From Candidatus Thorarchaeota archaeon (lineage in GTDB: Archaea; Asgardarchaeota; Thorarchaeia; Thorarchaeales; Thorarchaeaceae): a stretch of 32,000 bases of DNA. How positions within the stretch are numbered: the first letter of the stretch is position 1; each line of letters starts with the position of its first letter. The position numbers and the translations under genes are program-made. Under the pieces are notes generated by a model. The model saw only the letters and a list, made by a program, of their open reading frames with translations, was not told the DNA's origin and ran no database searches. Location: assembly GCA_008080745.1 (NCBI GenBank), contig SHMX01000006.1:1-32000 (forward strand). The letters are read 5' to 3'. Positions 11,598 to 31,715 of the stretch are shown here, one piece after another.

Positions 11598-11962
11598 ATA
11601 TCCATTTTAACCAAATGAATAATAAATAATAACTCTACTAAAAAGATATTCGTTGAAAGCGGGATTCTTTCTTTAATCGTGTTCCACTCATCAAATCACA
11701 TTTTTGAGTTTCAAAATTGTTTGCATCAAATATACGCAAAACAAGCCTAGCACATCTAAATCTAAATTCCTACAAGAAATGGAATTCTTGTTGACTACCA
11801 ATGTCATAGGTAAAAGACAGGTATGAATTACCGCCCGCACCCCTCAAAATTTCCTCACTATTTCAAGTTTCAATTTATGTCCCAACTTTCAGGATATTAT
11901 AACAAAAACCACATAGATATTATAAGGTGGTTTGCCATCTTGGCTATTGGAGACCTAGTGCG

Positions 11963-13764: not shown

Positions 13765-13765
13765 T

Positions 13766-14209: not shown

Positions 14210-14216
14210 ACAATCA

Positions 14217-14774: not shown

Positions 14775-15002
14775 GTTGCTCACCAGGTGGTCGCACGAAT
14801 TGCATCCAGATTGCAAACAAACCGCCTATTAGATATATTGATTTTTTATGGGATGAATGAAGATATCACATACTGTTTCTTTTTTTTCCAGACACAAAGA
14901 TGTAAAATTCCAGATATTAAACTAGGAATTTAATTAGAAGTTTTTTGGCTAGATGGTTACGATATACTATGTCACACTTTGAGTATATTAAGTTGTATTA
15001 GT

Positions 15003-17609: not shown

Positions 17610-17695
17610 CAAGTATTTATCTCAGAAATATCTCAATATTAAATACAGGTTAATATTTATCAGTTTTCGATAGATGAATGCTCTCGGTGTGAGGA

Positions 17696-18175
17696 TTGGA
17701 ATCAAATCAAAAAAGAATCCTTTCAGTTATATCACTAGTATTGAGTTTTCTCCTCCCATTCATGATAGCAATTGGCCCAATGGTGGGAAATGAGTATTTT
17801 ATGATTTATGCACCTCTATGGATATTTTATGAGGCCGGAACAGAAACATACTTTGGGTTCAGTCCTATGATGCTAATGATAGTGCTGTATTGGATTCCGT
17901 ATGTAATAGCAACATATCAGATTCCAAGATTAGCAGAAGGGAAAATAGACTCGTTCAAAACTCTTGTAAGAAATGTTCTTATCCTGACGATAATTGGCAT
18001 AATTCTGACTCTCCCTCTTTCTTTCGTCCCCAGTGGTATGAGTGGAGGAATAGAGTACTACACCACGATGGTTCCATTGCCATTCGCTTCGATTCTATCA
18101 GTATTATTTGGATATGTTGTAAAACCCCGGAAGATTGAATCTCCATGGGATAAAGAGAGTTCACCTGACAAGTGA
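17696..18175 (+). CDS. Hypothetical 4-TM membrane protein
   Basis: Four hydrophobic segments, charged tail KPRKIESPWDKE; TTG start. Confidence 0.7.
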   Translation: MESNQKRILSVISLVLSFLLPFMIAIGPMVGNEYFMIYAPLWIFYEAGTETYFGFSPMMLMIVLYWIPYVIATYQIPRLAEGKIDSFKTLVRNVLILTIIGIILTLPLSFVPSGMSGGIEYYTTMVPLPFASILSVLFGYVVKPRKIESPWDKESSPDK

Positions 18176-18209
18176 AAATAGTTCAACTAGATCTAAAGTG
18201 ATAGTAGTC

Positions 18210-19496
18210 CTATCTAAGAGATACTATAGCCAGACTATGTGCCTCTGCCAACTTACCAATATCCTTGATAGGTTTAGAACCATACAATTCTAAACCAGCT
18301 AATTCATAGAGTCTGGTGAGTTCTGAAAGATTCTTTCTGGAATTAACAACATCATACAACTCATCACGGCCTAATTCATACCGAGAGGCCTCTTCAATTA
18401 GATACTCACAATTATCCCAAATTTTCTGGAGAATCAAGAGTAATGGTTTGGATTGAGCAATGAGCTTGTAGTCTTCTGGATATTTTTGTCTTGCAATTTT
18501 CAGATACATTTGGGTATAGAGCATGAATTTCAGTAGCCTATGAGTTATACTGGGAGAATCAGAAGGCATTTGATCAATCAGTCGCAGCGTTGTTCTGAGA
18601 CCTCGACAATATGCATTTAATTCATTCAATACCGATTGGAAATCCTGTTTTCCTGAATGGCCCAGATACTCTGAATCGAAATCATCACGATCATCCAGCG
18701 CCTGAAGAATCTCTTGGCGATAGAATAGGCTTCTGGGGATACTACAACCGATAGCATGGTCATCAATAAGATAGATGTATCCCGACCCACCTTCAGGTAT
18801 GCGTAGGTGTTTATCACGAATAACATATTGAATTGTTGAACCAACATGTGTCAATTCATGTACGAGGGTCTCAGAGTTCATAACCAAATCATCAGTTGAA
18901 TCAACGAACATCAGAAAGACGTCTGGTTCCATCATACCAATCTTTACCGCAATCCAGTATCCTTGTTCATCTCTAGTGTCCAAAGCATCGAGAACACTCT
19001 CAGCCCAATCTATTTTATCAGATGAGTCGGTCTTCTTTTTTAGAAGCTTGATCAGTTTCTTTCGTTCAGAAGATGAAACCGAATAGTCACCTACAGACTT
19101 CAAAGGTTTAGGTTCAGAGCTGAAGGTTGGTTCACCACCATCTATCATTGGAAGACCGTCTTCTATCACTTTCCCTACACAATAACCAGGGAAATGATAG
19201 TTGCCCTTCTTGTCAACAGCAAATACATAATAGCTATAGGAGGTCTTGGGTTCTACCTCTCGATCCACTAACATGGTAGCTGAATCATCAAGCGTAAAGA
19301 TGAACAGTTCATTGAAATCACCGCTTCCTTCGATTAACTCGGAACAACCTGTCTTATAGTCATATGTCATTGATCGGAAGACTTTCCATTCTTTGATCTT
19401 CACATCATCCTTAGGTGGGCGGAAAGAAATGAAAGCACCCTCTTTTCTGGTTCGGATTTTTGTAGGCCGAAGCGATTCATTTGGATATCTTACCAT
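18210..19496 (-). CDS. FN3-like domain fused to a putative zinc metallopeptidase (zincin)
   Basis: N-terminal ~126 aa ending YSYYVFAVDKKG (FN3-like); LVHELTH at 18846-18860 and downstream NELNAY as a possible third Zn ligand; no signal peptide. Confidence 0.65.
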   Translation of the reverse strand: MVRYPNESLRPTKIRTRKEGAFISFRPPKDDVKIKEWKVFRSMTYDYKTGCSELIEGSGDFNELFIFTLDDSATMLVDREVEPKTSYSYYVFAVDKKGNYHFPGYCVGKVIEDGLPMIDGGEPTFSSEPKPLKSVGDYSVSSSERKKLIKLLKKKTDSSDKIDWAESVLDALDTRDEQGYWIAVKIGMMEPDVFLMFVDSTDDLVMNSETLVHELTHVGSTIQYVIRDKHLRIPEGGSGYIYLIDDHAIGCSIPRSLFYRQEILQALDDRDDFDSEYLGHSGKQDFQSVLNELNAYCRGLRTTLRLIDQMPSDSPSITHRLLKFMLYTQMYLKIARQKYPEDYKLIAQSKPLLLILQKIWDNCEYLIEEASRYELGRDELYDVVNSRKNLSELTRLYELAGLELYGSKPIKDIGKLAEAHSLAIVSLR

Positions 19497-19504
19497 TTTA
19501 AGAC

Positions 19505-19885
19505 CTACTTGAAAGTGGGTTCTCCGCCATCAGCCATTGGTAAGCCGTCTTCGAGAATCTTGCCTACGCAATAGCTCGGAAAATACAGGTCTCCATTTTC
19601 ATCAACTGCAAATACATAGTAAGAATATCTTTTTCCTTCCTCAGCCTCTTTATCCACGTACATAGTTTTAGTAGAGTCTATTGTAAAAGTTTTCAAGTCG
19701 TCGAAATCACTGCCACTCTCAATCAGTTTGGAACAAGGGGACTTGTAATCATAAGTTAATGAACGATAGATTCTCCATTCTTTTATTGAATCCACTCCCT
19801 TGGGTGGACGAAAGGATACATAAGCTCCTTCTTTGCGAATTCGAACGTTGGTAGGTCTCAAAGATTCGTCTGGATAGTTAGTCAT
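19505..19885 (-). CDS. Stand-alone FN3-like domain protein, paralog of the N-terminus of the downstream gene
   Basis: Gap-free alignment over 126 aa, 79 identities by hand count; ATG 19885 after a GGAG RBS. Confidence 0.85.
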   Translation of the reverse strand: MTNYPDESLRPTNVRIRKEGAYVSFRPPKGVDSIKEWRIYRSLTYDYKSPCSKLIESGSDFDDLKTFTIDSTKTMYVDKEAEEGKRYSYYVFAVDENGDLYFPSYCVGKILEDGLPMADGGEPTFK

Positions 19886-20002
19886 AGGATATATCTCCAC
19901 TTCTCACTCTAGGTCGGTTATGCCTCTCTAAACAAAATAAGGATTTATCCGACGAATTAGTAATATTTTAGATTCCTTTACTACACGAATAAAAGAAGAT
20001 GT

Positions 20003-20749
20003 TTGTCAAGAAATATTAGTCATAAAAACCATGAGCAATGTGATGTAATTATGAGTCAAGTGCGAATGCAACACGACAAGAAATCATTTTCCATATTTGT
20101 GGTCATAGCAGTTGTATTTCTTTCGCTACTGTTCATTCAGCTTGCAGGAGCTGTATTCATCCAGATTGGTATTCCAGCTTGGCTAGCATTTCTTATAGTT
20201 CCAGGTTCCTTACTTGGGAGTCTTGTTAATATTCCAATCTATACCATAGAATCGGATTCTGCACCTTGTGATGCCAAAGAATACAAACAGGTATGGCTAA
20301 TAACCTATCACATCGTTGGATCAGAATGTCCAGGAGAAACGATTGTCAGTATCAATCTGGGTGGCGCTGTTATCCCAGCAGTAGTAAGCGGATATCTTAT
20401 TTTTGTTAATCTGGCAGGTATTATCCCAATTCTTCTAGCAATTAGTATAGTTGCAATCTTTGTAAGAGCAATAGCTAAAGTCGATCCCGATATTGGAATC
20501 ATGACACCAGCCCTACTACCTCCACTTGCAGCTGCACTCATGACTATGATTGTAATGAGTTTATTTCCAATAGGAATTAATGCTTATGCTATTGCATATA
20601 TCTCAGGAACTCTAGGTACCTTAATTGGAGCGGATCTGTTGAATGCTCATAGATTTGATGAATTTAAAACGGATCAGGTATCAATCGGTGGAGCAGGTAC
20701 TTGGGATGGTGTATTTTTAACGGGAATTATTGCGGTATTTCTCGTATAA
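20003..20749 (+). CDS. DUF1614 family membrane protein
   Basis: GSLVNIP, INLGGAVIP, GTLIGADLLN, SIGGAGTWDGVFLTGI motifs. The true start may be a downstream ATG. Confidence 0.85.
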   Translation: MSRNISHKNHEQCDVIMSQVRMQHDKKSFSIFVVIAVVFLSLLFIQLAGAVFIQIGIPAWLAFLIVPGSLLGSLVNIPIYTIESDSAPCDAKEYKQVWLITYHIVGSECPGETIVSINLGGAVIPAVVSGYLIFVNLAGIIPILLAISIVAIFVRAIAKVDPDIGIMTPALLPPLAAALMTMIVMSLFPIGINAYAIAYISGTLGTLIGADLLNAHRFDEFKTDQVSIGGAGTWDGVFLTGIIAVFLV

Positions 20750-20780
20750 GAAGTTGAGAGAAGAAAGGAGTTTTCTTCCT

Positions 20781-21110
20781 CTAACTCTCGCCTTTCTTCT
20801 TGTAGGTATCGGTCTTCTCGCGTTCTTCTTTTTTACCCATAGGAAGAGGTCCTTTCCCAGATGTTTCTTGTCCAGCTCGATGTGAATCATCTGTCGGGTA
20901 AGAACTGGAAGATACACCAGTTCCTGTTGGATCTGGACTTTTTCTATCGGGACTTCTTGCAATAGTTTCTGTGTGAAGATGACCTGCATGCATCGCACGA
21001 CGAATTAGAAAACCAGCTACGAAGATAGCTACTAGTACTGCTGCAAGAGCTATAACTAAAAATGCGAATGAAGAGGGATCGAATATAGGGGATGGATCAA
21101 ATGGTTGCAT
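20781..21110 (-). CDS. Small single-TM protein, paralog 3 of a tandem trio
   Basis: N-terminal TM; PDPTGTGVSSSSYPTDDSH motif; Lys-rich tail; GGGGTGA RBS. Confidence 0.75.
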   Translation of the reverse strand: MQPFDPSPIFDPSSFAFLVIALAAVLVAIFVAGFLIRRAMHAGHLHTETIARSPDRKSPDPTGTGVSSSSYPTDDSHRAGQETSGKGPLPMGKKEEREKTDTYKKKGES

Positions 21111-21198
21111 ACATACAGATTCTCACCCCATGTTATAAATCTTAACAATGTTGAAGAATTTAGGAATTCTTAAGGAATAGCTAAGATTCTCATTTGAC

Positions 21199-21483
21199 TT
21201 AGTCCTCACTGTATCTGCGATGTGTTTCAGTCTTTTTACGGTCCTTCTTTTTGCCTATTGGAAATCCACCCTTATCAGAAGCACGATACATTGGTGAGTA
21301 TGACTCATCATAAGGATATGAACCTGATAAGGCACCACTACCTTTAGGATCAGGTTGTCCTGGTTGACCAATCCGGGTTACTTTACGAGAATCGTATGGA
21401 TTCTGACGCATCAGCCAGATAAATAGCACTAACACCAGCCCAGCCATAACTAAAATGAATGTTCCTGCGAATTCTATTTGCAT
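21199..21483 (-). CDS. Small single-TM protein, paralog 2 of a tandem trio
   Basis: N-terminal TM; PDPKGSGALSGSYPYDESY motif; FPIGKKKDRKKT tail. Confidence 0.78.
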   Translation of the reverse strand: MQIEFAGTFILVMAGLVLVLFIWLMRQNPYDSRKVTRIGQPGQPDPKGSGALSGSYPYDESYSPMYRASDKGGFPIGKKKDRKKTETHRRYSED

Positions 21484-21548
21484 TGTTATACGAACTTATC
21501 CTATAATGAAATAAAGTTATTCAAAACTTATAATGCTTATTCGGAAAT

Positions 21549-21812
21549 TTAGAAATTTTTGTCCTTAACATCTTTTACAGGGTTTGGGTTCACTTCATCA
21601 CAATAACGTAGAGCTGGATGATATGAATCACCGTATGGAGAGGAACCGGATAGAGCACTTCTACTTCGGGGATCTGGCTTCTTTAATAGATATTCAAGAT
21701 TCCTTGAGGTTGTGCTTTCTTGTTCCTGACGATTTATCAAAACACATAGAAACACTGTAATTGCAACAATGAAGATTACCACGGGTCCAGCAATATCAAC
21801 CTGCATATTCAT
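21549..21812 (-). CDS. Small single-TM protein, paralog 1 of a tandem trio
   Basis: MNMQVDIAG start after an AGGA RBS; TM; PDPRSRSALSGSSPYGDSY motif. Confidence 0.72.
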   Translation of the reverse strand: MNMQVDIAGPVVIFIVAITVFLCVLINRQEQESTTSRNLEYLLKKPDPRSRSALSGSSPYGDSYHPALRYCDEVNPNPVKDVKDKNF

Positions 21813-21913
21813 GTGATTATTCCTTAGATAGTTGAAAAATATTTTCAAATAACTACGGTTGAAACCTATCCAAGTATTCGCCCATTTACATCCAGATTTA
21901 CTTTAATCAAAAA

Positions 21914-22696
21914 TCAAATTTTAGATATATGGAATATAATATAGTAACCCAGAAGGATAATCATACCAATTCCGATTAGAACAGGAATCCAAAGACCAGT
22001 CCAAAATGAGAAACCTGTCCAAAATGCAATACTTACAAGAAGACTGCTTGAAACATCAGCATTGATATCTTCAGAAATCCAAATATTCTCTGCCACTAAT
22101 AGATGCATCATTACGGAAGCAATCAGTGCTGTAAGAAACCAACCAGCGTAATTAGAAAGCGGAATCCCATAGTAGGGACCTGGTTCTCCCCAGACCCATA
22201 TATTCAGCACTACCGCTGCTGGATCAAGAATCAAATCAACTATCACAAGTAGTAATGCACTTAGGGGTATTGCGAGAACTGCCTTCTTACTCAATTTGTT
22301 TGCAATTGTTATAGAACCTAATACGAGTGGGGCAAATGCAAAAGAAACACTCCATGGAACAAGGTCAAGAATCTTGAATCCCATCTGGTCTGTGTATTCA
22401 AACGGTCCATAAGGAAAACCTGTGATTATCCCTATAGCTTCTATAATAATGGGAAATATACTGAAAAGTGTAATAATTAGAATTGCGCGAATGGGCGTTG
22501 TCCAACGATACAGGAAGAAATAGGAGGGCAATGCAATAGCTACTATGAAAAGAGCTGATACCCATGTGGCTTGCTCCCCAATGGGTACATTAGCAACTAA
22601 CCAGCTTACAAAGAAGAACACTACGGAAAAGATAGTTATGAATAATTTCTTAGTTCCCTCTACAGGATCTCTGTAGATTGACTTGATGCGTTCCAT
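21914..22696 (-). CDS. cruF: Carotenoid 1,2-hydratase, CruF/DUF422 family (bisanhydrobacterioruberin hydratase-like)
   Basis: IEAIGIITGFPYGPFEYT, DLILDPAAV, WVW..PGPYYGIPLSNYAGW. ATG 22696 overlaps the lyeJ stop (TAATG). Confidence 0.85.
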   Translation of the reverse strand: MERIKSIYRDPVEGTKKLFITIFSVVFFFVSWLVANVPIGEQATWVSALFIVAIALPSYFFLYRWTTPIRAILIITLFSIFPIIIEAIGIITGFPYGPFEYTDQMGFKILDLVPWSVSFAFAPLVLGSITIANKLSKKAVLAIPLSALLLVIVDLILDPAAVVLNIWVWGEPGPYYGIPLSNYAGWFLTALIASVMMHLLVAENIWISEDINADVSSSLLVSIAFWTGFSFWTGLWIPVLIGIGMIILLGYYIIFHISKI

Positions 22697-23565
22697 TAGA
22701 ATACCCCCATGAGTGGTAGACCTACTGCAAAGAATAGAACCATTCCAAAAATTCCTGTATAAATAGGAAAGTACCAATATGATTTCTCTACGCTAACTGA
22801 TGGTTGAATCAACAAGTAGAGTGGAATAAGCGGATATATGAACATCATGAGATTCCATGGAGCATACCATGGTGGATACCAAGGTGCCATGAATGTAAGA
22901 ATTATCGCAAAAAGTAACCAGAAGATAAAACACAATATCAGAGACAGCCTTTTTCCCATAATAACTGCAGTCGTTTTGATGTCGGCTTTGGTATCAGCTT
23001 CTATATCAGGAATTGCTGAAAACAGTTGCATTGCTGAAGTCCAGAAGAAAGCGGCAAGAAGTGGAAGGGGTGGTGGGATAATGGATGTAACTTGATAATA
23101 TGCTAGTAATGCAGGAATAACGTACAGAAAATTAGAAGCAAAATCAAGTATTGGTACAGCTTTGAATCTGAAGGGTTTTACACTATACATTATCGATAAT
23201 GACATCCAGCTAGCAAAAAGCAGAATAGCGGTTATATCGGGCTGGAAAGCCATCAGTACAAAACCATAGATGAATGAGAGTGCAACTAAAGTATAGAGCT
23301 TTAGTTTATCCCTTTCAGCAGCACGATATTCTTTCTCATCTTTCTTAGGATTGAACATATCTGTATCTTTGTCAGAAATGTCATTGACACCATAGAGTAA
23401 AATGTTGGCTGGAATCATGAAGTAGAATAGATGTGCAATAAAGTAAGAATCCATTAACTGACTAATACTGGTGATTCCAATGATGTAGCCAATTAGGTAG
23501 GTACCTCCCAGATACAGCCAGAAACGTATCCGAGAAACTTTGAATGCTAGTCGAAAGATGTTCAT
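22696..23565 (-). CDS. lyeJ: UbiA-family prenyltransferase, lycopene elongase/hydratase-like
   Basis: SRIRFWLYL, LYGVNDISDKDTDMFNPKK, YSVKPFRFK.VPILD..SN.LY, FSAIPDIEAD; lies between crtD and cruF as in haloarchaea. Confidence 0.85.
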   Translation of the reverse strand: MNIFRLAFKVSRIRFWLYLGGTYLIGYIIGITSISQLMDSYFIAHLFYFMIPANILLYGVNDISDKDTDMFNPKKDEKEYRAAERDKLKLYTLVALSFIYGFVLMAFQPDITAILLFASWMSLSIMYSVKPFRFKAVPILDFASNFLYVIPALLAYYQVTSIIPPPLPLLAAFFWTSAMQLFSAIPDIEADTKADIKTTAVIMGKRLSLILCFIFWLLFAIILTFMAPWYPPWYAPWNLMMFIYPLIPLYLLIQPSVSVEKSYWYFPIYTGIFGMVLFFAVGLPLMGVF

Positions 23566-23595
23566 GATAGTGACGTACCTACTTGGAAGGTCTAT

Positions 23596-25065
23596 TTATT
23601 CTTTCATCTCCTCATAAATCAAATCAGCTACAATCTCTGCAGAGATGAGTGCCATTGGTACACCTATCCCTGGGTGTGTGTACTGTCCCACATAGAATAG
23701 GTTGTCTACCTTCTTACTCTTGTGACTTGGTCTAAAGAATGCAGACTGCCAAAATGAGTGTGTAAGTCCTACAGCGGTTCCTCGATAGGCATTATAAGCT
23801 TCGGAAAAATCATCCAGAGTAAACACACGTTGTACTATGATCGAGTCGCGGATATTTGTCTTCAGCACCTTCTCTATGTGATCTACCATTTTATTGAAAT
23901 ATGACTCGCGAATCTCTGGAGTATCCTCAATTCCTGGAGCTAAGGGTACTGTCACAAAGATATTCTCATGATTTGGTGGGGCAACAGAAGAATCCGACTT
24001 TGATGTGCAACACAAGTAGTAAGCAGGTTTGTCAGGCCATTGTGGATTTTCAAATATTTGCTCAAAATGTTCGACCCAATCATGGTCTAGAATTACATTG
24101 TGGTGAGTAAGGTTATCTATGGTCTTATTGAGGCCGACATACATAACATAAGCTGAGGGGGCTATGGTCTTCTTCTCCCAGTATCCTATGTCATAAGTTT
24201 TGTACTTTTCCGGAATATAATTTATTTCAACATGAGGATAATCTGCATTGACTACAACTACGCCAGCCTCCATCTCACCATTATTTGTTATAATTCGATG
24301 TACTCGACCATCAGATATCTGTAAATCAGTTACTTCGGTACCATATTTTATACTACCACCATGCTGTTCTGTCAGGGCAACTAGCCCCTCTACTATCTTA
24401 CCCATACCACCCATCGGATACCAAACACCCAGATTATAGTCGATATGAGAAATCATGGAATAAAGAGCTGGGGTGTTCTTGGGATTGCCTCCCAGAAATA
24501 CGATAGTATATTGTAGGATTTTTTGTACTCGTTCATCATCAAAGTATTTTCGAATGAGTTTATCCATATTTGAGAGAATTGAGAGTTTCCAGCCTGCAGC
24601 CATAAGTTTTGGACTTAGCATAGACCGTAACCCTGAGAGATCTTCATACATGAGACCCTCCATTAGGTAATCGTATTTATCCTGAGCCTGTTTTAGATAG
24701 TCTTCAAATTTTTCAGCACCATTATCTTCAAGTCTATCGAATAATTCCTTATTCTTCTCTAAATCTGCAGAGATATCAATCACTTCATGATCTGGGAAGA
24801 AGAATCGATAAGATGGATCTAATCGTACCAATTCGTAGAAATCACTCACCTTTTTTCCAAAGAGATCAAAATAATGTTCGAATACTTCAGGCATTAAATA
24901 CCATGAAGGTCCCATATCAAATACGAATCCATCTTTTGCCCAAATTCGGGCTCTTCCACCAGGTTCTTGATTTTTCTCAAGAACTGTTACATTATGTCCT
25001 TCTAGGGCTAACAGTGCCGCAGTGGCAAGACCTCCAACTCCAGCGCCAACTATCTTCACATCCAT
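23596..25065 (-). CDS. crtD: Phytoene-desaturase-family enzyme, probable carotenoid 3,4-desaturase
   Basis: IVGAGVGGL, FDMGPSWYLMP, QYTIVFLGG.PKNTPALY, HPGIGVPMALISA; first gene of crtD-lyeJ-cruF. CrtD rather than CrtI is inferred from synteny and motif style. Confidence 0.75.
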   Translation of the reverse strand: MDVKIVGAGVGGLATAALLALEGHNVTVLEKNQEPGGRARIWAKDGFVFDMGPSWYLMPEVFEHYFDLFGKKVSDFYELVRLDPSYRFFFPDHEVIDISADLEKNKELFDRLEDNGAEKFEDYLKQAQDKYDYLMEGLMYEDLSGLRSMLSPKLMAAGWKLSILSNMDKLIRKYFDDERVQKILQYTIVFLGGNPKNTPALYSMISHIDYNLGVWYPMGGMGKIVEGLVALTEQHGGSIKYGTEVTDLQISDGRVHRIITNNGEMEAGVVVVNADYPHVEINYIPEKYKTYDIGYWEKKTIAPSAYVMYVGLNKTIDNLTHHNVILDHDWVEHFEQIFENPQWPDKPAYYLCCTSKSDSSVAPPNHENIFVTVPLAPGIEDTPEIRESYFNKMVDHIEKVLKTNIRDSIIVQRVFTLDDFSEAYNAYRGTAVGLTHSFWQSAFFRPSHKSKKVDNLFYVGQYTHPGIGVPMALISAEIVADLIYEEMKE

Positions 25066-25162
25066 GTTTAAACACACACCTTAACAATCTCTAATAGAAT
25101 CCTTCATCCCTAATAACCTAATTGTTCAAATTCAAAAATTTTATCGGAAAGTTTTAGAAAAC

Positions 25163-25195
25163 CGTCAAATTAGAGAACGATATTCGTCAATATCG
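25163..25195. promoter_or_regulatory. Candidate operator in the divergent crtD/crtB intergenic region
   Basis: Perfect inverted repeat CGATATT-cgtc-AATATCG (25178-25195) at the centre of the region; CGTCAA direct repeat at 25163 and 25185. Confidence 0.4.
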
Positions 25196-25300
25196 AAAGG
25201 GAACTAACCAACTATTTAATAATACGAAAGTTATAAGATTCGCACTATATTAGGAGAAAAAATCAGGGAATAATTCATTATTTGATGGAGGATTCAAATA

Positions 25301-26305
25301 ATGGGGTGTCCAAAAAGGTGTGTGCAAGTGTTTAGTGATTACAAGGCCCATCTCACAGTGCTGCCTTCGCAGATTGAGATAATAGAAGAAATAGAACAAG
25401 ATAATTTAGAACATGCTTATGACTATTCATTGAACCTATTCAAGTTACATGCAAAGTCATTCTACTTCGCATCAAGGTATTTGGAGGAAAAAGAACGAAG
25501 AGCGTTTGCAGCGCTCTATGGATTTTGTAGATTAGCAGACGATTTTGTAGATGAGATAAATCTTGAAATTTCGGAGATAGATAAGGAATTAGACATTCTC
25601 AAAGATATGACATCAGGACTTGCCAAAGGCAAGACATACAATCATCCGTTGTTTCTTGCTTTTGGAGATACCATGATTAGATATAAGATTCCTGTCAGGT
25701 ATTTACATGAACTCATTGAAGGAGTTCGTATGGATGTAAATCTAGATGAAATTAAAACTGAGAAAGAATTGGAGAAATATTGTTATCACGTAGCATCAAC
25801 AGTTGGTCTCATGATGTGTCATATATGGGGAAGTACTCGAAGAGATACATTAGAAAGAGCTGCTGACCTTGGACATGCATTACAGCTTACTAACATCCTC
25901 AGGGATGTTGCTGAAGACTATGATAATGGTAGAATATACATACCTTTGGAAACCAGAGAATTGTTTCGAGTCACAGCTAATGAGTTTGAACTTCGTGAGG
26001 TACGACCTAATTTTCAGAGGTTAATTGAACATGAGATTCATCGAGCAAGAACTCTTTATGCTAGATCTGAAGTTGGTATACCCGATTTACCTCCAGCGGG
26101 ACAATTCACAGTAAAAGTTGCGTCTAGAGTATATGCATCCATTATGTCCGAAATCGAGAAGATGGACTATCAAGTTTTCAAGAAACGTGCAATTGTTCCC
26201 AAATGGAAGAAAATCTGGATAGCTTATCGCGTTCGTTCGGAGTATTTAAGAGAGAAAAAGGCTTACGAGCGAAAAATGGCGGATGGGATTAGACAGATCG
26301 CATAG
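25301..26305 (+). CDS. crtB: Phytoene synthase
   Basis: HAKSFYFAS, YGFCRLADDFVD, YCYHVASTVG, LQLTNILRDVAED..GRIYIP. Confidence 0.93.
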   Translation: MGCPKRCVQVFSDYKAHLTVLPSQIEIIEEIEQDNLEHAYDYSLNLFKLHAKSFYFASRYLEEKERRAFAALYGFCRLADDFVDEINLEISEIDKELDILKDMTSGLAKGKTYNHPLFLAFGDTMIRYKIPVRYLHELIEGVRMDVNLDEIKTEKELEKYCYHVASTVGLMMCHIWGSTRRDTLERAADLGHALQLTNILRDVAEDYDNGRIYIPLETRELFRVTANEFELREVRPNFQRLIEHEIHRARTLYARSEVGIPDLPPAGQFTVKVASRVYASIMSEIEKMDYQVFKKRAIVPKWKKIWIAYRVRSEYLREKKAYERKMADGIRQIA

Positions 26306-26338
26306 AATTTCTATGATTTCTCAGGAGGGAGAAATAGA

Positions 26339-27841
26339 ATGAATACAAAGAAAAACAAAGAAATAGTAGTAATAGGCGGAGGTCTCGGAGGACTTGCAGC
26401 TTCCATTAGAATGCAGGCTGCAGGACATTCGGTGACACTCCTTGAGAAACGCCATCAATTGGGTGGAAGAGCAGGTGTATTTGAAAGAAAGGGTTATGTG
26501 TTTGATACTGGACCTACCATACTGACCCCACCAATGGTTGTAGATGACCTGTTTCAAACTGCAGGTAAAGAAACATCGGAATATGTACAACTTGAGAAGG
26601 TATCTCCAAAATACAGATTATACTTTTCTGATGGAAGCAAGATGGACTATTCTGGTGAGGAAGAGAACATCTCTCAGATTGAGAAGATGAGCCCAAAAGA
26701 TGTTGAAGGATATAAGAAATTCCTCAAAAGAGTTAAACCGATTTACGAATTAGGTTTTGAGAAATTTGGTTCCATGCCCTTTGAGAGTATTTTTCAAATG
26801 GCTAAGATGGGACCTGCTGGGTTGAAGCATAAGGCATACAGGAGTGTATATGGATTTGTTTCAAGTTATGTGAAAGATCCAAGACTCCGTATTGCAATGT
26901 CATTTAATCCACTGTTTATTGGTGGCAATCCCTTCACCACAACAGCGATATATACTCTGATAACCTACATTGAAGAGAAGCACGGAGTATGGTGGGTAAA
27001 GGGCGGCACGCACAAACTTGTAGAGGCAATGGGACAACTGATTAACGATTTAGGCGGGCAGTATCATCTCAACTCTGAAGTATCGCAAATTCATGTCACC
27101 GATAAGAAGCGAGTAAAGAGTGTTGAAACCATTGATGGATCAGTATATGATGCAGACATTGTCATCTCGAATGCTGATACTGCACATACCTACATGAGTC
27201 TCATTGACAGCAAATATCGTAAAAAGAACAAGGATAAGCGATACAGAAAAGCCAAGTATAGTATGAGTCTGTTTATGACTTACTTCGGCGTGAAGAAGAA
27301 ATACGAGGATATGGTTCAACACAGCATTGTTTTTGGTCCCCGATATAAGGACCTAATTGAAGACATCTTCAAGAAGCACATTGTTCCAGATGACTTCTCA
27401 ACATATCTTCATATCCCAACTCGAAATGATCAGAGTCTTGCACCTCCGGGATGTGAAGCCATGTACGCATGCACACCAGTCACGAACTTGGAAGGAGAGG
27501 TCAATTGGGAGGAAAAGAAGGATGAATTCCGAGATCATATTCTCGGTACATTGGATAAGTCGGTTCTACCAGGATTGCTAGACAATCTCGAAGTGGCAGA
27601 AGTCTTTACCCCTGCAGACTATGAGAGAGAGTTCCATTCATTCCGTGGTAGCGGATTTCAATTGCAGCCAATTCTACTCCAATCTGGATCCTTCAGACCC
27701 CACAATCGGTCAAAGGATGTCAAGGGACTTTATCTGGTTGGTGCAGGAACGCATCCTGGAGCTGGAGTTCCTAGTGTCATCATGAGTGCAGACATCACCT
27801 CGCAATGTATCTTTGAGGATATAGAAAAAGAGAAGATATAA
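26339..27841 (+). CDS. crtI: Phytoene desaturase
   Basis: VIGGGLGGL, FDTGPTILT, SFNPLFIGGNPF, YSMSLFMTYFG, FRPHNR, LVGAGTHPGAGVPSV. Confidence 0.88.
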   Translation: MNTKKNKEIVVIGGGLGGLAASIRMQAAGHSVTLLEKRHQLGGRAGVFERKGYVFDTGPTILTPPMVVDDLFQTAGKETSEYVQLEKVSPKYRLYFSDGSKMDYSGEEENISQIEKMSPKDVEGYKKFLKRVKPIYELGFEKFGSMPFESIFQMAKMGPAGLKHKAYRSVYGFVSSYVKDPRLRIAMSFNPLFIGGNPFTTTAIYTLITYIEEKHGVWWVKGGTHKLVEAMGQLINDLGGQYHLNSEVSQIHVTDKKRVKSVETIDGSVYDADIVISNADTAHTYMSLIDSKYRKKNKDKRYRKAKYSMSLFMTYFGVKKKYEDMVQHSIVFGPRYKDLIEDIFKKHIVPDDFSTYLHIPTRNDQSLAPPGCEAMYACTPVTNLEGEVNWEEKKDEFRDHILGTLDKSVLPGLLDNLEVAEVFTPADYEREFHSFRGSGFQLQPILLQSGSFRPHNRSKDVKGLYLVGAGTHPGAGVPSVIMSADITSQCIFEDIEKEKI

Positions 27842-27850
27842 TAGAACTAG

Positions 27851-27867
27851 AGGCCGAAAGGCCTTTT
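27851..27867 (+). terminator. Hairpin AGGCC-GAAA-GGCCT followed by a T-tract after crtI
   Basis: 5-bp stem with GAAA tetraloop, 9 bp after the crtI stop, followed by ttt. Confidence 0.6.
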
Positions 27868-27885
27868 ACGTATTTTAATAATTTA

Positions 27886-28224
27886 TTGCAGAATTATGTA
27901 ACAAATTGCTATCAGATGGGGTTGCTAGAATTATTTATGGAAATGTGTAAAATAGGAAAAGCACTATCGTCTGAGGTCCGATGTTTTTTACTCACAATCT
28001 TAGAGATACCATTATCACTATCTGGTATTTGTGATACATTGGAAAAGATGGGTATTTATAGACTCAGAAGAGAAACAATCTATAGACATTTAGAAATTTT
28101 AACGAATGCGGGTCTGGTTGAAAAAGAATACCATAGAACAGATAAGATTCTGAAATATACGACTATAAAAGGAAATATGATATTGAATCTGCTAGAAGGT
28201 ACTGTTGAAATTATTGGTGACTAA
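27886..28224 (+). CDS. ArsR-like winged-helix transcriptional regulator
   Basis: EVRCFLLTILEIPLSLSGI...RETIYRHLEILTNAGLVEK. Start uncertain. Overlaps the MTase ORF. Confidence 0.75.
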   Translation: MQNYVTNCYQMGLLELFMEMCKIGKALSSEVRCFLLTILEIPLSLSGICDTLEKMGIYRLRRETIYRHLEILTNAGLVEKEYHRTDKILKYTTIKGNMILNLLEGTVEIIGD

Positions 28225-29308
28225 TTTGGTTGAGGAAAATGAAACATTTCAAAAAACATTGGTTTCTGATAGGATAATATACGATGTGCCTTTTCCCTCC
28301 ACTAGATTTCAGGGAAGTAAGAGAAGAGTTATCAAATGGATTAAGAAACAAGCTATGAATTTTGAATTTAATTCAGTTCTCGATTGTTTTGGCGGTACTG
28401 GAATTGTTAGTCATCTTTTCAAAAGATTAGAAAAACAGGTTACATACAATGACTACCTTAGATCTAATGTAGTAATGGCAAAAGCTCTGATTGAAAATAG
28501 AGACGTTACCATTTCAACAAAGAAAATTGCAGACCTGTTCCATCAGACAAATCCCCCCTATGATGATTTTGTTCAACGCACATTTCAAGATATTTACTAT
28601 ACAGATGCAGAGAATAAACAGATAGACATAGTCACACAGAATATACATTTAATTGAAAATGAATATGAGAGAGGTTTAGCTTTCTTTGCATTGTTCCAAG
28701 CCTGTCTTATCAAAAGACCATATAATCTGTTTCATAGAAAAAATCTGTATATGAGAACATCTGATGTAGAAAGATCCTTTGGAAATAAAACCACATGGGA
28801 AAGACCATTTGATGAACTGATGATTCAGTTTGCGAATGAGGCGAACAAGGCAGTCTTTGATAATGGTAAGGATAATACTGTACTGAATCGAGATGCACTA
28901 TCGATTACACAGCAGGATTATGATCTTATTTATGTTGATACACCATATATCTCACCCAAAGGAGTTGGTGTCGATTATCACCACTTCTATCACTTTTTAG
29001 AAGGACTGGTACAATATGATGTATGGAAAGAGCAAGTGGATTTCAAATCCAAACACAGAAGGTTGCGTTCTATAGATAATCCTTGGCATGATAAAGATCG
29101 AATTTACGAAGCTTTTAACATGCTCTTTGAAGAATTTAGAAATTCTATCATCATGGTTTCATATAGGTCACCCGGTATTCCAAGCATAGATGAATTAGAG
29201 GAAATTCTATTAAAATACAACAAGGATGTTCAAATATTTGAGAAGAAGCATCAATATGTGTTATCTAAGAGAAGAAGATCACACGAAGTATTATTGATTG
29301 CAATCTAA
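28205..29308 (+). CDS. N6-adenine DNA methyltransferase (alpha class, Dam/D12 family)
   Basis: TRFQGSK, motif I VLDCFGGTG, motif IV LIYVDTPY (DPPY variant). Start uncertain. Confidence 0.88.
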   Translation: MKLLVTNLVEENETFQKTLVSDRIIYDVPFPSTRFQGSKRRVIKWIKKQAMNFEFNSVLDCFGGTGIVSHLFKRLEKQVTYNDYLRSNVVMAKALIENRDVTISTKKIADLFHQTNPPYDDFVQRTFQDIYYTDAENKQIDIVTQNIHLIENEYERGLAFFALFQACLIKRPYNLFHRKNLYMRTSDVERSFGNKTTWERPFDELMIQFANEANKAVFDNGKDNTVLNRDALSITQQDYDLIYVDTPYISPKGVGVDYHHFYHFLEGLVQYDVWKEQVDFKSKHRRLRSIDNPWHDKDRIYEAFNMLFEEFRNSIIMVSYRSPGIPSIDELEEILLKYNKDVQIFEKKHQYVLSKRRRSHEVLLIAI

Positions 29309-29379
29309 TTACAAACATTCGTAATTTATTGTATATTTCTGTAAAGATTACTTAATTATATTCTACTCATCATTAATTC

Positions 29380-30027
29380 ATGAAATACTGGGAGAATCTT
29401 ATTGAGGATATAGAAGAGATTGCATCAGAAGTTGAATGGAATGTCAAAGGAATTCTTTTAGACAACGATGAACTCATAGAAATGCCATCTATGTCAACAG
29501 TTGTTACTGCACTCATAGAGTGTTTTGCAATAGCAAAATATACACCTTATTTTGATTCAAAAAAAATCAACTACACTTTTGGAGGTGAAAGGTCATATCC
29601 AGATATAGTATTGGAAGGTAAAGGAATTGAAAATGATGTAATTGCCCTAGATATTAAAACATGTAGAATGAAAAGCAAGAAAAAAATATCGGGTTTTACC
29701 TTGGGAAGTTATGGGGAGTATTTCAGAAATCCGGCTGTGAAAAAAAGAGGATGTCTAAGGCCATATGGTGAGTTTAGAAAACACATAGTTGTAGGATTCA
29801 TATACAAATGGGATAAAGAGGCATCAACTCCGGATAAAGTAGAAATATTAGAGAGAATAGTTGCTGAAAAGTGGCAGTTATCTTCAAGGAAGACAGGAAC
29901 TGGAACAACTACTGCAATAGGATCAATCACTGAATTATCTAGAATACTAAATAGAGATGGAGAATTCTCTTCAGAAGAAGAGTTCGAAAAGTATTGGAGA
30001 AAATACGAAAAAAAGAAGAAATCATAG
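29380..30027 (+). CDS. EcoRV-family type II restriction endonuclease
   Basis: YPDIVL...IALDIKT (PD-DxK), FTLGSY..YFRN, KW..., GTGTTTAIGSI, GEFSSEEEFEKYWRKYE; colinear with EcoRV as I recall it (YPDFTL, IAIDIKT, FTLGGY, GSGNTTNIGSI, FDSEDEFLDYWRNYE). Confidence 0.85.
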   Translation: MKYWENLIEDIEEIASEVEWNVKGILLDNDELIEMPSMSTVVTALIECFAIAKYTPYFDSKKINYTFGGERSYPDIVLEGKGIENDVIALDIKTCRMKSKKKISGFTLGSYGEYFRNPAVKKRGCLRPYGEFRKHIVVGFIYKWDKEASTPDKVEILERIVAEKWQLSSRKTGTGTTTAIGSITELSRILNRDGEFSSEEEFEKYWRKYEKKKKS

Positions 30028-30031
30028 CCGA

Positions 30032-30517
30032 CTATTTCTCGTGGGCTCGTTTAGCTCCACCTAACCATTCATTAAATACAATAATTCGAAAATCATCAGT
30101 AATATCCAGAGAATCGTCAACTATGGTTACAGCAGGATGTCCAAAACCATCTTCCTCAGCGTGAAGAAGACTTTCAAGACAGGCCTTGTACTTCTTTTGC
30201 GCTTTGTCAAATTGATCCTCCGCAAATGTCCAACCTTTGAAGAGAACCCATTGATTTTGACCCAAGACTGGTTCAACTCTGACCTCAACTCTATAGTATA
30301 TGCTTGTTTCCTCATCCTGCGTATCGACTACCTTTGCAATTCCAACACCCCAAGTCACATCAAATGATGTGATATCAGGTCTCCATTCAATCCATTCACG
30401 TGTATGGTTTTCTGCGCTCAAAATAATCGCACTAAGGATAGTTGATTTCCTGATAGGTCTTTCTATAAAAATAGAGGGAAGAGGGAATCCCCTGTTACTC
30501 GGTTGATCCCCATTCAC
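30032..30517 (-). CDS. Hypothetical protein
   Basis: 161-aa ORF overlapping the upstream CBS gene by 23 bp; no family recognised. Confidence 0.65.
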   Translation of the reverse strand: MNGDQPSNRGFPLPSIFIERPIRKSTILSAIILSAENHTREWIEWRPDITSFDVTWGVGIAKVVDTQDEETSIYYRVEVRVEPVLGQNQWVLFKGWTFAEDQFDKAQKKYKACLESLLHAEEDGFGHPAVTIVDDSLDITDDFRIIVFNEWLGGAKRAHEK

Positions 30518-31715
30518 TTCTTAGAATCTCTTTGATCTTCCGTTCAGCATACTCCTCATCCATATCTCGACCACGTCGGTCCTCAATATTTCTCTCAACT
30601 TTATCGAGAGCGAATCTGAATGCTTCTTCAGGACTCCAAGCATCAGCAATACCATAGAACTGTCCCTGATGGGTATAGAATTGTAATTTACATTGAATGT
30701 GTTGATCTCCTTTTGTTGCGGGTCCAAACCTTTTCATATGAACAAAGAGACCTCCAATTCCTACGGTGTCTTTATACTTCTGTGCAAAGGCGGTGAATTG
30801 TTTTCTGATAATCTCACGTTCTCTCTCAGATATCTCGACATTTGGTTTAACTGTGAACTGAACTGTCACCTGTCTTTGTTCACGGACCTCCGATGCTAAA
30901 GGTTGGAGAAAATCAAGCTTGGTCATAATCCCAACTAGTTGTTCATCGTGATCTACCACAGCGAGAGATGATATGTCATGACTCTGCATTTTATCAAAAG
31001 CATCTCTGAGAGAATCATCAGGTCTCACAGCTACTACTGGTGAGGACATAATATGACGAATCTCTATGTCCTGAAGATTTTTCGTCTCTCCGCTCCTCTC
31101 ACCATGACCTCCGTGATCTCTTGTACTACCAAAGCCACCTTCGGTCCGGTTTCTCCTTCGATATACAATGTCTATGACATCACGAAGACTTACAATACCT
31201 TCAGTCTGCCCATTCTTCACAACTGGAGCATGGGAGAAACCATGTTCTCTGAAAGTTGCGAGTAGTTGTCCAATCGTCTGACTAGGAAACATATAGACGG
31301 GGTTTTTCGTCATGACAACTGATACAGGATTGTTCCCCCAATCTTCTGCTATTATTCTTCCAATTATATCCTCTCGTGTGAGATATCCTTTGAGTCTTTC
31401 ACCTGAATAAACCGGAAGAATGGTGGCTCCGCTTTCAACCATCAATCGTGCTGCTTCAGCCAGAGCATCGTGTTCTTCAACTTTGGGAACTTTTCTAGTT
31501 AAATCCTTCACCTTTCTTTGTGAAGTGTCAATCTTTGATCTATCTAACCATCGTAATGATAACGTACCGGAATAATTTCCCTTCTCATCTTGTACAACTA
31601 ATGCGGGTAACGAACTATCCTTGAAATAACTAATTGCTTTTGCTAATAGAGCATCTTGTTCTATAATACCCAATTCTTCATCTGAGTATACATCTATAAC
31701 TTTGATTTCTGCCAT
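30495..31715 (-). CDS. Four-CBS-domain protein with C-terminal HPF/RaiA-like domain (Hib-like archaeal ribosome hibernation factor)
   Basis: CBS repeats (LVVQDEKG..G.LS, VMTKNP, IMSSPV, LAVVD..LVGIMT); C-terminal beta-alpha-beta-beta-beta-alpha segment ending AWSPEEAFRFALDKVERNI. Confidence 0.72.
   Translation of the reverse strand: MAEIKVIDVYSDEELGIIEQDALLAKAISYFKDSSLPALVVQDEKGNYSGTLSLRWLDRSKIDTSQRKVKDLTRKVPKVEEHDALAEAARLMVESGATILPVYSGERLKGYLTREDIIGRIIAEDWGNNPVSVVMTKNPVYMFPSQTIGQLLATFREHGFSHAPVVKNGQTEGIVSLRDVIDIVYRRRNRTEGGFGSTRDHGGHGERSGETKNLQDIEIRHIMSSPVVAVRPDDSLRDAFDKMQSHDISSLAVVDHDEQLVGIMTKLDFLQPLASEVREQRQVTVQFTVKPNVEISEREREIIRKQFTAFAQKYKDTVGIGGLFVHMKRFGPATKGDQHIQCKLQFYTHQGQFYGIADAWSPEEAFRFALDKVERNIEDRRGRDMDEEYAERKIKEILRSEWGSTE

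What the first reader, a model, noticed from the sequence alone, without database searches (positions are those of the whole stretch)
21914..27841. Apparently complete C50 bacterioruberin-type carotenoid pathway in a putative Asgard archaeon
Seen: cruF-lyeJ-crtD operon (lyeJ/cruF coupled by TAATG) divergent from crtB-crtI. Knowledge: in Haloarcula japonica, CrtD, LyeJ and CruF (same gene order) convert lycopene to bacterioruberin, CrtB and CrtI make lycopene from GGPP, and archaea already make GGPP for ether lipids. No cyclase, blh or rhodopsin gene is in the window. Inference: the organism can make an acyclic C50 membrane-spanning antioxidant pigment, which is unexpected for a lineage known mostly from anoxic sediments and suggests exposure to oxygen, light or salt stress. 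The taxonomic assignment and novelty are unverified.
Basis: partly seen in the sequence, partly recalled or inferred. Interest (0 to 1): 0.78.

Follow-up and report, generated by a model that had tools for sequence, protein, structure and literature searches.

The report
Thorarchaeal C50-type carotenoid gene cluster
A Thorarchaeote (Asgard archaeon) from marine sediment carries an intact five-gene cluster predicted to build a red, bacterioruberin-like C50 pigment, but the same tailoring genes occur in many strictly anaerobic archaea, so it says little about oxygen, light or salt.

Summary
Window 21914-27841 encodes cruF, lyeJ and crtD on the minus strand, divergent from crtB-crtI. The lyeJ stop and cruF start overlap as TAATG.

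- **Family scores:** LyeJ (281 bits, cut-off 205) and CrtD (676, cut-off 640) pass NCBIfam equivalog cut-offs. CruF (135, cut-off 154.7) and CrtB pass Pfam only.
- **Origin:** The contig is Thorarchaeal, not mis-binned. The cluster is syntenic in other Thorarchaeota, including a closed chromosome. Logan contigs from two sequencing runs span it without a difference.
- **Distribution:** lyeJ is in 34 of 400 Asgard genomes: 17 of 85 in the window's own family and 13 of 19 in a Hermodarchaeota-like family.
- **Phylogeny:** The crtD-lyeJ-cruF module groups with cassettes from methanogens and Bathyarchaeia, with Patescibacteria and Armatimonadota further out. Halobacteria are a separate long branch. 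CrtB and CrtI are an Asgard-wide type.
- **Rest of the genome (98% complete):** No haem-copper or bd oxidase, rhodopsin, Blh or convincing cyclase was found.

Best reading: a native, selected pathway to a bacterioruberin-like C50 carotenoid. The product is untested.

The inference of oxygen, light or salt exposure is not supported. Putative lyeJ in a Heimdallarchaeon and bacterioruberin gene sets in sedimentary Thermoprofundales are already published. This scan has noted the same cassette before in methanogens and a Woesearchaeon. It is a new member of a known kind.

The parts
21914..22696 (-). cruF-like carotenoid hydratase. It is 260 aa from the ATG at 22696; the longest ORF reaches 22777.
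   Evidence: PF04240, E 2e-44, covering 8-208 of 209 profile positions. TIGR03460 scores 135 bits, below the 154.7 cut-off, and NF041333 scores 103, below 300. The ATG overlaps the lyeJ stop as TAATG. It groups with methanogen and Bathyarchaeia CruF, not with Halobacteria.
22696..23565 (-). lyeJ-like UbiA prenyltransferase, a predicted lycopene elongase/hydratase of 289 aa.
   Evidence: NF009516/PRK12875 scores 281 bits against a cut-off of 205. Both Asp-rich motifs are present, NDISDKDTD at residue 61 and DIEAD at 187; all their Asp/Asn residues (N61, D62, D65, D69, D187, D191) are invariant across 13 diverse homologues. It is a single copy in the genome.
23596..25065 (-). crtD / CrtID-type carotenoid desaturase, 489 aa from the ATG at 25065.
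   Evidence: NF058655 scores 676.6 bits against a cut-off of 640. The FAD motif GAGVGG is present. It lies in the same well-supported clade as the haloarchaeal lyeJ-adjacent CrtD.
25066..25300 (.). AT-rich 235-bp divergent intergenic region, presumed to hold promoters for both transcription units.
   Evidence: Sequence read. The promoter function is inferred and was not tested.
25301..26305 (+). crtB, a phytoene/squalene-synthase family enzyme and predicted phytoene synthase of 334 aa.
   Evidence: PF00494, E 6e-71. Asp-rich motifs DDFVD at residue 80 and DVAED at 202. It is below every NCBIfam equivalog cut-off: HpnD 221 against 279, CrtB 187 against 550. All named hits among its 120 best are Asgard (about half carry no name).
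26339..27841 (+). crtI, a bacterial-type phytoene desaturase of 500 aa.
   Evidence: TIGR02734 scores 577 bits against a cut-off of 238. The FAD motif GGGLGG is present. It belongs to an Asgard clade whose next relatives are bacterial CrtI at 47-49% identity.

Best explanation
This is a native, functional carotenoid cluster of a Thorarchaeaceae genome, assembled from two modules.

1. crtB-crtI, of a type shared across Asgard archaea, condenses two GGPP to phytoene and desaturates it to lycopene.
2. crtD-lyeJ-cruF is the tailoring module. LyeJ adds a C5 unit from DMAPP to each end of lycopene and hydrates it. CrtD introduces the 3,4 double bonds, and probably can also desaturate phytoene. CruF hydrates the added C5 units.

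The predicted end product is bacterioruberin or a close acyclic, hydroxylated C50 relative, sitting in the membrane.

Shown here: gene identities, conserved motifs, synteny, conservation, phylogeny and genomic setting. Inferred: every catalytic step and the product. Also inferred: because the host and the module's closest relatives are anaerobes, the desaturases would use an acceptor other than O2, and the pigment would serve as a membrane or antioxidant component rather than a marker of aerobic, sunlit or hypersaline life.
For: - **Family scores.** LyeJ and CrtD pass curated equivalog cut-offs. CruF, CrtB and CrtI pass Pfam or subfamily cut-offs.
- **Motifs.** Catalytic Asp-rich and FAD motifs are intact.
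- **Gene order.** crtD-lyeJ-cruF matches Halomicrobium katesii, and 41 of 41 sampled Halobacteria carry lyeJ. The haloarchaeal trio is experimentally tied to bacterioruberin (Yang 2015, cited in PMC9258230). The lyeJ-adjacent desaturase C0507 is a bifunctional CrtI/CrtD (PMC11946383).
- **Conservation.** The five genes are syntenic in other Thorarchaeota, including the closed chromosome CP070761. dN is 0.05-0.13 with saturated dS against the same-genus genome.
- **Co-occurrence.** lyeJ and crtB are each present in 17 of 85 family genomes, and nearly the same ones.
- **Shared history.** The LyeJ, CruF and CrtD trees give the same picture: an Asgard clade next to a methanogen/Bathyarchaeia clade.
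- **Precursor.** The genome has two polyprenyl synthases.
- **No competing branch.** No cyclase or Blh was found.
- **Assembly.** Logan contigs of 50.7 kb from two runs span window 17000-31000 with no differences.
Against: - No enzyme from the non-halophile clade has been characterised, as far as the searchable literature shows.
- Thor LyeJ is only 39% identical to the haloarchaeal protein, and Halobacteria sit on long separate branches.
- CruF is below both CruF equivalog cut-offs.
- CrtB specificity, C40 versus C30, is unresolved: its best NCBIfam hit is HpnD, below cut-off.
- The genome has no terminal oxidase. No quinone pathway was examined, so the electron acceptor for two CrtI-type desaturases is unknown.
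- A CrtI homologue in Methanosarcina acetivorans acts on membrane lipid (hydroxyarchaeol) rather than on a carotenoid (cited in PMC9128505).
Confidence: 0.6

Rival explanations
1. The cluster makes a carotenoid, but not bacterioruberin. Candidates are a C40 or C45 hydroxylated acyclic carotenoid, a less desaturated C50 such as a bisanhydro- or tetrahydro- form, or a C30-derived series if CrtB uses FPP.
For: CruF is below its equivalog cut-offs, and CrtB's best hit is HpnD, below cut-off. The module is a different subclade from the characterised haloarchaeal enzymes. In some Thorarchaeota cruF is separated from lyeJ by an aldehyde:ferredoxin oxidoreductase gene and two ThiS-like genes. Many relatives outside the Asgard group show no cruF within the fetched flank.
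Against: All three tailoring genes are present, in the haloarchaeal order, and translationally coupled here. LyeJ and CrtD pass equivalog cut-offs. CrtI is a canonical bacterial-type enzyme, 47-49% identical to bacterial CrtI.
Confidence: 0.27
2. The LyeJ-like, CruF-like and CrtD-like proteins modify some other isoprenoid, such as membrane ether lipids or polyprenols, and not a carotenoid.
For: A CrtI homologue in Methanosarcina acetivorans is responsible for hydroxyarchaeol (cited in PMC9128505). TIGR03460 also rings in M. acetivorans. An earlier scan note (e1-3090265) describes lyeJ/cruF-like genes in a methanogen with no backbone genes nearby; this was not checked here.
Against: In this window the module is divergently paired with crtB-crtI. 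Across the family, lyeJ and crtB are present or absent together. In 62 of the 66 non-Asgard, non-haloarchaeal loci a PSY-family gene lies beside lyeJ. CrtD passes the CrtID equivalog cut-off.
Confidence: 0.08
3. The cluster is a mis-binned or chimeric fragment, or a very recent transfer from haloarchaea, and not a Thorarchaeal trait.
For: Its distribution within the family is patchy, 17 of 85 genomes. A restriction-modification system lies next to crtI. The bin carries about 5% contamination, including small 62-65% GC contigs.
Against: The host contig is 181.7 kb with 38.9% GC, like the main contigs. Ras-like GTPase genes typical of Asgard archaea lie in the same window. The cluster is syntenic in many Thorarchaeota, including a closed chromosome, and a flanking gene (orf428) is 86% identical in the same-genus MAG. 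Logan contigs bridge both borders. Gene trees place Halobacteria far from the Asgard clade.
Confidence: 0.02

Closest known systems
Haloarchaeal bacterioruberin pathway: Haloarcula japonica CrtB, the bifunctional CrtI/CrtD enzymes C0507 and D1086, LyeJ and CruF (Yang et al. 2015; PMC11946383)
   Same: The five enzyme families are the same, and crtD-lyeJ-cruF has the same order and orientation. There are two CrtI-family paralogues, as in Ha. japonica. LyeJ and CrtD pass the NCBIfam equivalog models.
   Different: LyeJ is only 39% identical. Halobacteria form separate long branches in the LyeJ and CruF trees. CruF is below the equivalog cut-offs. CrtB and CrtI are an Asgard/bacterial type. The host has no oxidase or rhodopsin and comes from marine sediment.
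crtD-crtB-lyeJ (with or without cruF) cassettes of methanogens, Bathyarchaeia, Thermoplasmata, Woesearchaeota, Patescibacteria and Armatimonadota (uncharacterised)
   Same: These are the closest non-Asgard relatives of LyeJ (43-50% identity), CrtD (about 45-52%) and CruF (31-43%). They are sister to the Asgard clade in the LyeJ and CrtD trees; the CruF tree is compatible but unresolved.
   Different: Those cassettes carry one desaturase and a short, divergent PSY (about 25% identity to Thor CrtB) between crtD and lyeJ. The Thorarchaeal cluster keeps the haloarchaeal order and adds a separate Asgard-type crtB-crtI pair.
Carotenoid genes of 'Ca. Kariarchaeum pelagium' (Heimdallarchaeia): crtB, crtI, putative lyeJ, crtD and a glycosyltransferase (PMC12137139, Extended Data Fig. 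3)
   Same: It is an Asgard archaeon with crtB, crtI, a LyeJ-like prenyltransferase and crtD. A Heimdallarchaeota RS678 locus was recovered here (L072).
   Different: The Kariarchaeaceae LyeJ and CrtD sit on long branches outside the Thor/Hermod clade. lyeJ and crtD are convergent there, and no cruF was found in the flank. That host is planktonic and has rhodopsins.
Thermoprofundales (MBG-D) subgroup E bacterioruberin/zeaxanthin gene sets (PMC9585477)
   Same: This is a sedimentary, non-halophilic archaeal lineage reported to have a complete bacterioruberin gene set, including CruF.
   Different: There the genes accompany heliorhodopsin and photolyase genes and were read as a light response. 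No heliorhodopsin was found in this genome.

Membership tests
LyeJ / Lye lycopene elongase-hydratase (NCBIfam NF009516, PRK12875) | Score above the curated equivalog cut-off | tested here: met
   281.3 bits against a cut-off of 205.
LyeJ / Lye lycopene elongase-hydratase (NCBIfam NF009516, PRK12875) | UbiA-type Asp-rich motifs for prenyl diphosphate and Mg2+ binding | tested here: met
   NDISDKDTD at residue 61 and DIEAD at 187. Their Asp/Asn residues (N61, D62, D65, D69, D187, D191) are invariant in 13 diverse homologues.
LyeJ / Lye lycopene elongase-hydratase (NCBIfam NF009516, PRK12875) | Groups with the characterised haloarchaeal enzymes in a tree | tested here: inconclusive
   It is the same family, but the Asgard clade groups with methanogen and Bathyarchaeia sequences. 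Halobacteria are a separate long branch (1.54). There was no outgroup.
LyeJ / Lye lycopene elongase-hydratase (NCBIfam NF009516, PRK12875) | Adds C5 units to lycopene and hydrates the 1,2 bond | not testable with these tools
   Needs heterologous expression and LC-MS.
CruF bisanhydrobacterioruberin hydratase (TIGR03460, NF041333; Pfam PF04240) | Full-length PF04240 domain | tested here: met
   E 2.2e-44, covering profile positions 8-208 of 209.
CruF bisanhydrobacterioruberin hydratase (TIGR03460, NF041333; Pfam PF04240) | Score above the curated equivalog cut-offs | tested here: not met
   TIGR03460 scores 135.4 against 154.7, and NF041333 scores 103.4 against 300. Halomicrobium scores 199 and Methanobacterium 167, both passing TIGR03460.
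CruF bisanhydrobacterioruberin hydratase (TIGR03460, NF041333; Pfam PF04240) | Located directly downstream of lyeJ, as in haloarchaea | tested here: met
   TAATG overlap with lyeJ. Halomicrobium katesii has the same order.
CrtID bifunctional phytoene desaturase / 3,4-desaturase (NF058655) | Score above the curated equivalog cut-off, plus an FAD-binding motif | tested here: met
   676.6 bits against a cut-off of 640. GAGVGG motif. The same clade (99 SH-aLRT) holds the lyeJ-adjacent CrtD of Halobacteria.
CrtB 15-cis-phytoene synthase | SQS_PSY fold with two Asp-rich motifs | tested here: met
   PF00494 scores 239.7 bits. DDFVD at residue 80 and DVAED at 202.
CrtB 15-cis-phytoene synthase | Equivalog-level assignment to C40 phytoene synthase rather than HpnD, HpnC or CrtM | tested here: inconclusive
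   HpnD scores 220.8 against 278.6, cyanobacterial CrtB 187 against 550 and CrtB 159 against 480. All are below cut-off. Context beside CrtI favours phytoene synthase.
CrtI phytoene desaturase family (TIGR02734) | Score above the subfamily cut-off, plus an FAD motif | tested here: met
   577 bits against a cut-off of 238. GGGLGG motif. 47-49% identical to bacterial CrtI.
Complete bacterioruberin pathway (system level) | All five enzyme functions plus GGPP supply in one genome, with no competing cyclase branch | tested here: met
Complete bacterioruberin pathway (system level) | Bacterioruberin is actually produced | not testable with these tools
   No culture, pigment or RNA data are available.

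The most novel reading that the evidence does not exclude
The crtD-lyeJ-cruF module is not a haloarchaeal speciality. It would be an old, widely shared trait of anaerobic archaea (Asgard, methanogens, Bathyarchaeia, Thermoplasmata) and some Patescibacteria. Under this reading, membrane-spanning C50 carotenoids are made without O2 and act as structural 'rivets' or redox buffers in anoxic sediments. Thorarchaeia and Hermodarchaeia would have inherited the module from a common ancestor, with many later losses. Bacterioruberin-type pigments would then be unrecognised lipids of Asgard membranes and possible sediment biomarkers.
Probability: 0.3. Interest if true: 0.7.

Novelty: new member of a known kind. 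Interest (0 to 1): 0.45.

Why it matters
If the prediction holds, some Thorarchaeota would be pigmented and would carry a membrane-spanning C50 carotenoid. That bears on how Asgard membranes are built and stabilised. It could also help in recognising or enriching these uncultured cells, by colour or by a pigment biomarker.

The wider pattern matters more than this one genome. The same tailoring module sits in many strict anaerobes. That raises the question of which electron acceptor CrtI-type desaturases use without oxygen or, in many of these hosts, without known quinones. It also cautions against reading carotenoid genes in MAGs as evidence for oxic, sunlit or saline lifestyles.

Tried and rejected
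- **RNA evidence.** No RNA holder was listed for the cluster or for lyeJ+cruF alone. This says nothing about expression.
- **Weak negatives.** The searches for PF01036, PF18761 and PF15461 found nothing, but they rang in no control genome either.
- **CrtY-type cyclase.** PF05834 gave only weak hits of at most 32 bits, mostly to the N-terminal FAD-binding end of the profile, on flavoproteins. It also rings in E. coli. I did not accept these as a cyclase. The window's own candidate (11927-13156) is a geranylgeranyl reductase family protein (TIGR02032 219 bits against 159).
- **dN/dS.** dS is saturated, above 2 or undefined, so only 'dN much smaller than dS' can be said.
- **Reference sequences.** I could not obtain the characterised Ha. 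japonica or H. salinarum LyeJ, or C. glutamicum CrtEb, by name. Halomicrobium katesii and 11 unnamed Halobacteria, identified by synteny, stand in for them. The LyeJ tree has no outgroup because the genome's other UbiA proteins are too distant.
- **Neighbouring small ORFs.** orf99 and orf94, downstream of cruF, have no Pfam hit. orf94 is matched only in the same-genus MAG; orf99 had no match at E <= 1e-5 in any of the eight loci. I do not count them as part of the cluster.
- **The HTH gene after crtI.** It overlaps a D12 methyltransferase gene followed by an EcoRV-like endonuclease gene. I read it as part of a restriction-modification unit, not as a carotenoid regulator.
- **Literature.** Searches found no paper describing this cluster in Thorarchaeota or characterising the methanogen-type cassette. 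The library lacks most subscription journals.

Full report
**Observation**

ORF listing and profile searches confirm the five genes at the stated coordinates.

| Gene | Coordinates, strand | Evidence |
|---|---|---|
| cruF-like | 21914-22777 (-) as longest ORF | PF04240, E 2e-44 |
| lyeJ-like UbiA prenyltransferase | 22696-23565 (-) | NF009516/PRK12875 281 bits, cut-off 205 |
| crtD | 23596-25077 (-) | NF058655 'bifunctional phytoene desaturase/3,4-desaturase' 676.6 bits, cut-off 640 |
| crtB | 25301-26305 (+) | PF00494, E 6e-71 |
| crtI | 26339-27841 (+) | TIGR02734 577 bits, cut-off 238 |

The lyeJ stop and a cruF ATG overlap as TAATG at 22698-22694. CruF is therefore most likely 260 aa. The in-frame ATG at 25065 is the likely crtD start.

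The catalytic motifs are intact:
- LyeJ has two Asp-rich motifs, NDISDKDTD and DIEAD.
- CrtB has DDFVD and DVAED.
- Both desaturases have a GxGxxG FAD motif.

CruF misses both CruF equivalog cut-offs. CrtB misses every equivalog cut-off, and its best hit is HpnD.

**Is it really Asgard, and really one piece of DNA?**

- The window is the first 32 kb of a 181.7-kb contig with 38.9% GC, in a 3.16-Mb, 19-contig genome. The genome is 98% complete with 4.8% contamination.
- The same window carries a Ras-family GTPase, a DUF742-like protein and an LRR protein, typical Asgard content.
- The closest relatives of LyeJ, CrtB and CrtI are all Thorarchaeota or 'Promethearchaeota' MAG proteins.
- The five genes keep the same order and orientation in eight named Thorarchaeota species representatives. 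These include SMTZ1-45 and the closed chromosome CP070761.
- In the same-genus MAG, synteny continues into a flanking gene (orf428, 86% identity).
- Logan contigs of 50.7 kb from two marine-sediment runs cover window 17000-31000 with no difference. These runs may be the source sample, so this shows continuity, not independence.

Mis-binning and chimerism are effectively excluded.

**Distribution**

- Among 400 Asgard genomes, lyeJ is present in 34. That is 17 of 85 in the window's own family, 13 of 19 in family f14, 2 of 12 in f10 and 1 of 5 in f30. Loci of f14 are named Hermodarchaeota or Hodarchaeota. Family f10 includes the Kariarchaeaceae MAG RS678.
- crtB of this type is in 48 of 400 genomes. 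In the Thor family it is in 17 of 85, nearly the same genomes as lyeJ. So the cluster is present or absent as a unit.
- One further family, f11, has crtB (15 of 22) without lyeJ, suggesting a C40-only pathway there.

**Evolution**

A degenerate-pattern scan of species-representative genomes found 576 LyeJ relatives, and the best 80 were kept. After the Asgard sequences come many other lineages at 39-50% identity:
- Methanogens: Methanobacteriaceae, Methanocalculus, Methanoculleus, Methanolobus, Methanosalsum and Methanomassiliicoccales.
- Other archaea: Methanofastidiosum, Bathyarchaeia, Caldarchaeales and Woesearchaeota.
- Bacteria: Patescibacteria and Armatimonadota.

Almost all of these carry a crtD-crtB-lyeJ cassette, often with cruF nearby.

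The trees give a consistent picture.
- **LyeJ.** Thor plus f14 is one clade (99 SH-aLRT). It sits in a 97-supported group with the methanogen/Bathyarchaeia/Thermoplasmata clade. Halobacteria are a separate long branch.
- **CrtD.** The arrangement is the same. All of these sequences, together with the lyeJ-adjacent CrtD of Halobacteria, form one 'CrtID' clade.
- **CruF.** The tree is compatible but less resolved. Thor and f14 are separate clades in an 88-supported group with the Bathyarchaeia/Methanomicrobiales clade, and Halobacteria are again a long branch.
- **CrtI.** Thor CrtI is a different paralogue. It belongs to an Asgard-wide clade (Thor, Hermod, Sif, Hod, Heimdall, Kari) whose next relatives are bacterial CrtI.
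- **CrtB.** Among its best 120 hits, every one that carries a name is Asgard (about half carry no name).

The cluster is thus a composite. An Asgard-type lycopene pair is joined to a tailoring module shared with anaerobic archaea. It is not a recent gift from haloarchaea.

**Function**

The haloarchaeal trio CrtD-LyeJ-CruF converts lycopene to bacterioruberin (Yang et al. 2015, as cited in PMC9258230). In Haloarcula japonica the lyeJ-adjacent desaturase C0507 and a second enzyme, D1086, each have both CrtI and CrtD activity (PMC11946383). That matches the two CrtI-family paralogues seen here.

Several lines point to a bacterioruberin-like acyclic C50 carotenoid made from GGPP:
- the same gene order as Halomicrobium katesii;
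- translational coupling of lyeJ and cruF;
- equivalog-level scores for LyeJ and CrtD;
- dN far below dS;
- two polyprenyl synthases in the genome;
- no cyclase or Blh found.

I put this at about 0.6. About 0.27 goes to a different carotenoid end product and 0.08 to a non-carotenoid substrate. No enzyme of the non-halophile clade appears to have been characterised.

**Ecological inference**

- The genome has no haem-copper or bd oxidase (both controls rang).
- No rhodopsin or heliorhodopsin was found (these are weaker negatives).
- The sample is marine sediment.
- The module's closest relatives live in strict anaerobes.
- By its isolate name, one carrier (Hermodarchaeum yapensis, Yap4) appears to come from a deep trench. 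This is my inference from the name and was not checked.

So the cluster is not evidence for exposure to oxygen, light or salt. It instead raises the question of what accepts electrons from CrtI-type desaturases in such hosts.

**Novelty**

I found no paper reporting this cluster in Thorarchaeota. Related reports do exist:
- a putative lyeJ/crtD pair in Kariarchaeum (PMC12137139);
- lycopene pathways in Heimdallarchaeia;
- complete bacterioruberin gene sets in sedimentary Thermoprofundales (PMC9585477).

Earlier notes of this scan had already flagged the cassette in methanogens and a Woesearchaeon. I therefore rate this a new member of a known kind, of moderate interest.

Noticed in passing
window 27886-30027: An ArsR-type HTH gene (27886-28224) overlaps a D12-class N6-adenine DNA methyltransferase gene (28205-29308), followed by an EcoRV-family endonuclease gene (29380-30027). 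This looks like a type II restriction-modification unit with a controller protein, directly downstream of crtI.
   Followed up: no
window 13153-16220: Minus-strand run of a V4R-domain protein, a DUF742/winged-helix protein, a Ras/Roc/Arf-like small GTPase and an LRR protein. This is an Asgard-style small-GTPase neighbourhood.
   Followed up: no
window 11927-13156: A geranylgeranyl reductase family flavoprotein (TIGR02032 219 bits, cut-off 159) lies 9 kb from the cluster. It gives a weak, non-specific hit to the lycopene cyclase Pfam. It could saturate isoprenoids, but there is no evidence that it acts on the carotenoid.
   Followed up: partly
G000 contigs C14, C15, C17, C18, C19: Five small contigs (2.4-14.6 kb) have 62-65% GC, against 39-43% for the rest of the genome. 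They are probably bin contamination.
   Followed up: no
L002 about 4385-5299 (CP070761, closed Thorarchaeota chromosome): The crtI orthologue matches only residues 2-306 of 500, so the C-terminal 190 or so residues are missing. crtB, crtD, lyeJ and cruF are intact. That genome would have to rely on the CrtID-type enzyme for phytoene desaturation.
   Followed up: partly
L054 6966-9442; L055 6985-10062: In some Thorarchaeota an aldehyde:ferredoxin oxidoreductase gene and two small ThiS/ubiquitin-like genes are inserted between lyeJ and cruF.
   Followed up: partly
L064-L130 (loci): A compact crtD-crtB-lyeJ cassette, often with cruF nearby, is widespread. It occurs in cultured and uncultured methanogens (for example Methanobacterium sp. 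ACI-7, Methanoculleus frigidifontis and Methanosalsum natronophilum), in Bathyarchaeia, Caldarchaeales and Woesearchaeota, and in Patescibacteria and Armatimonadota. I found no published characterisation.
   Followed up: partly
window 3782-6574: A heavy-metal P-type ATPase with an N-terminal HMA domain and two C-terminal YHS/TRASH domains.
   Followed up: no
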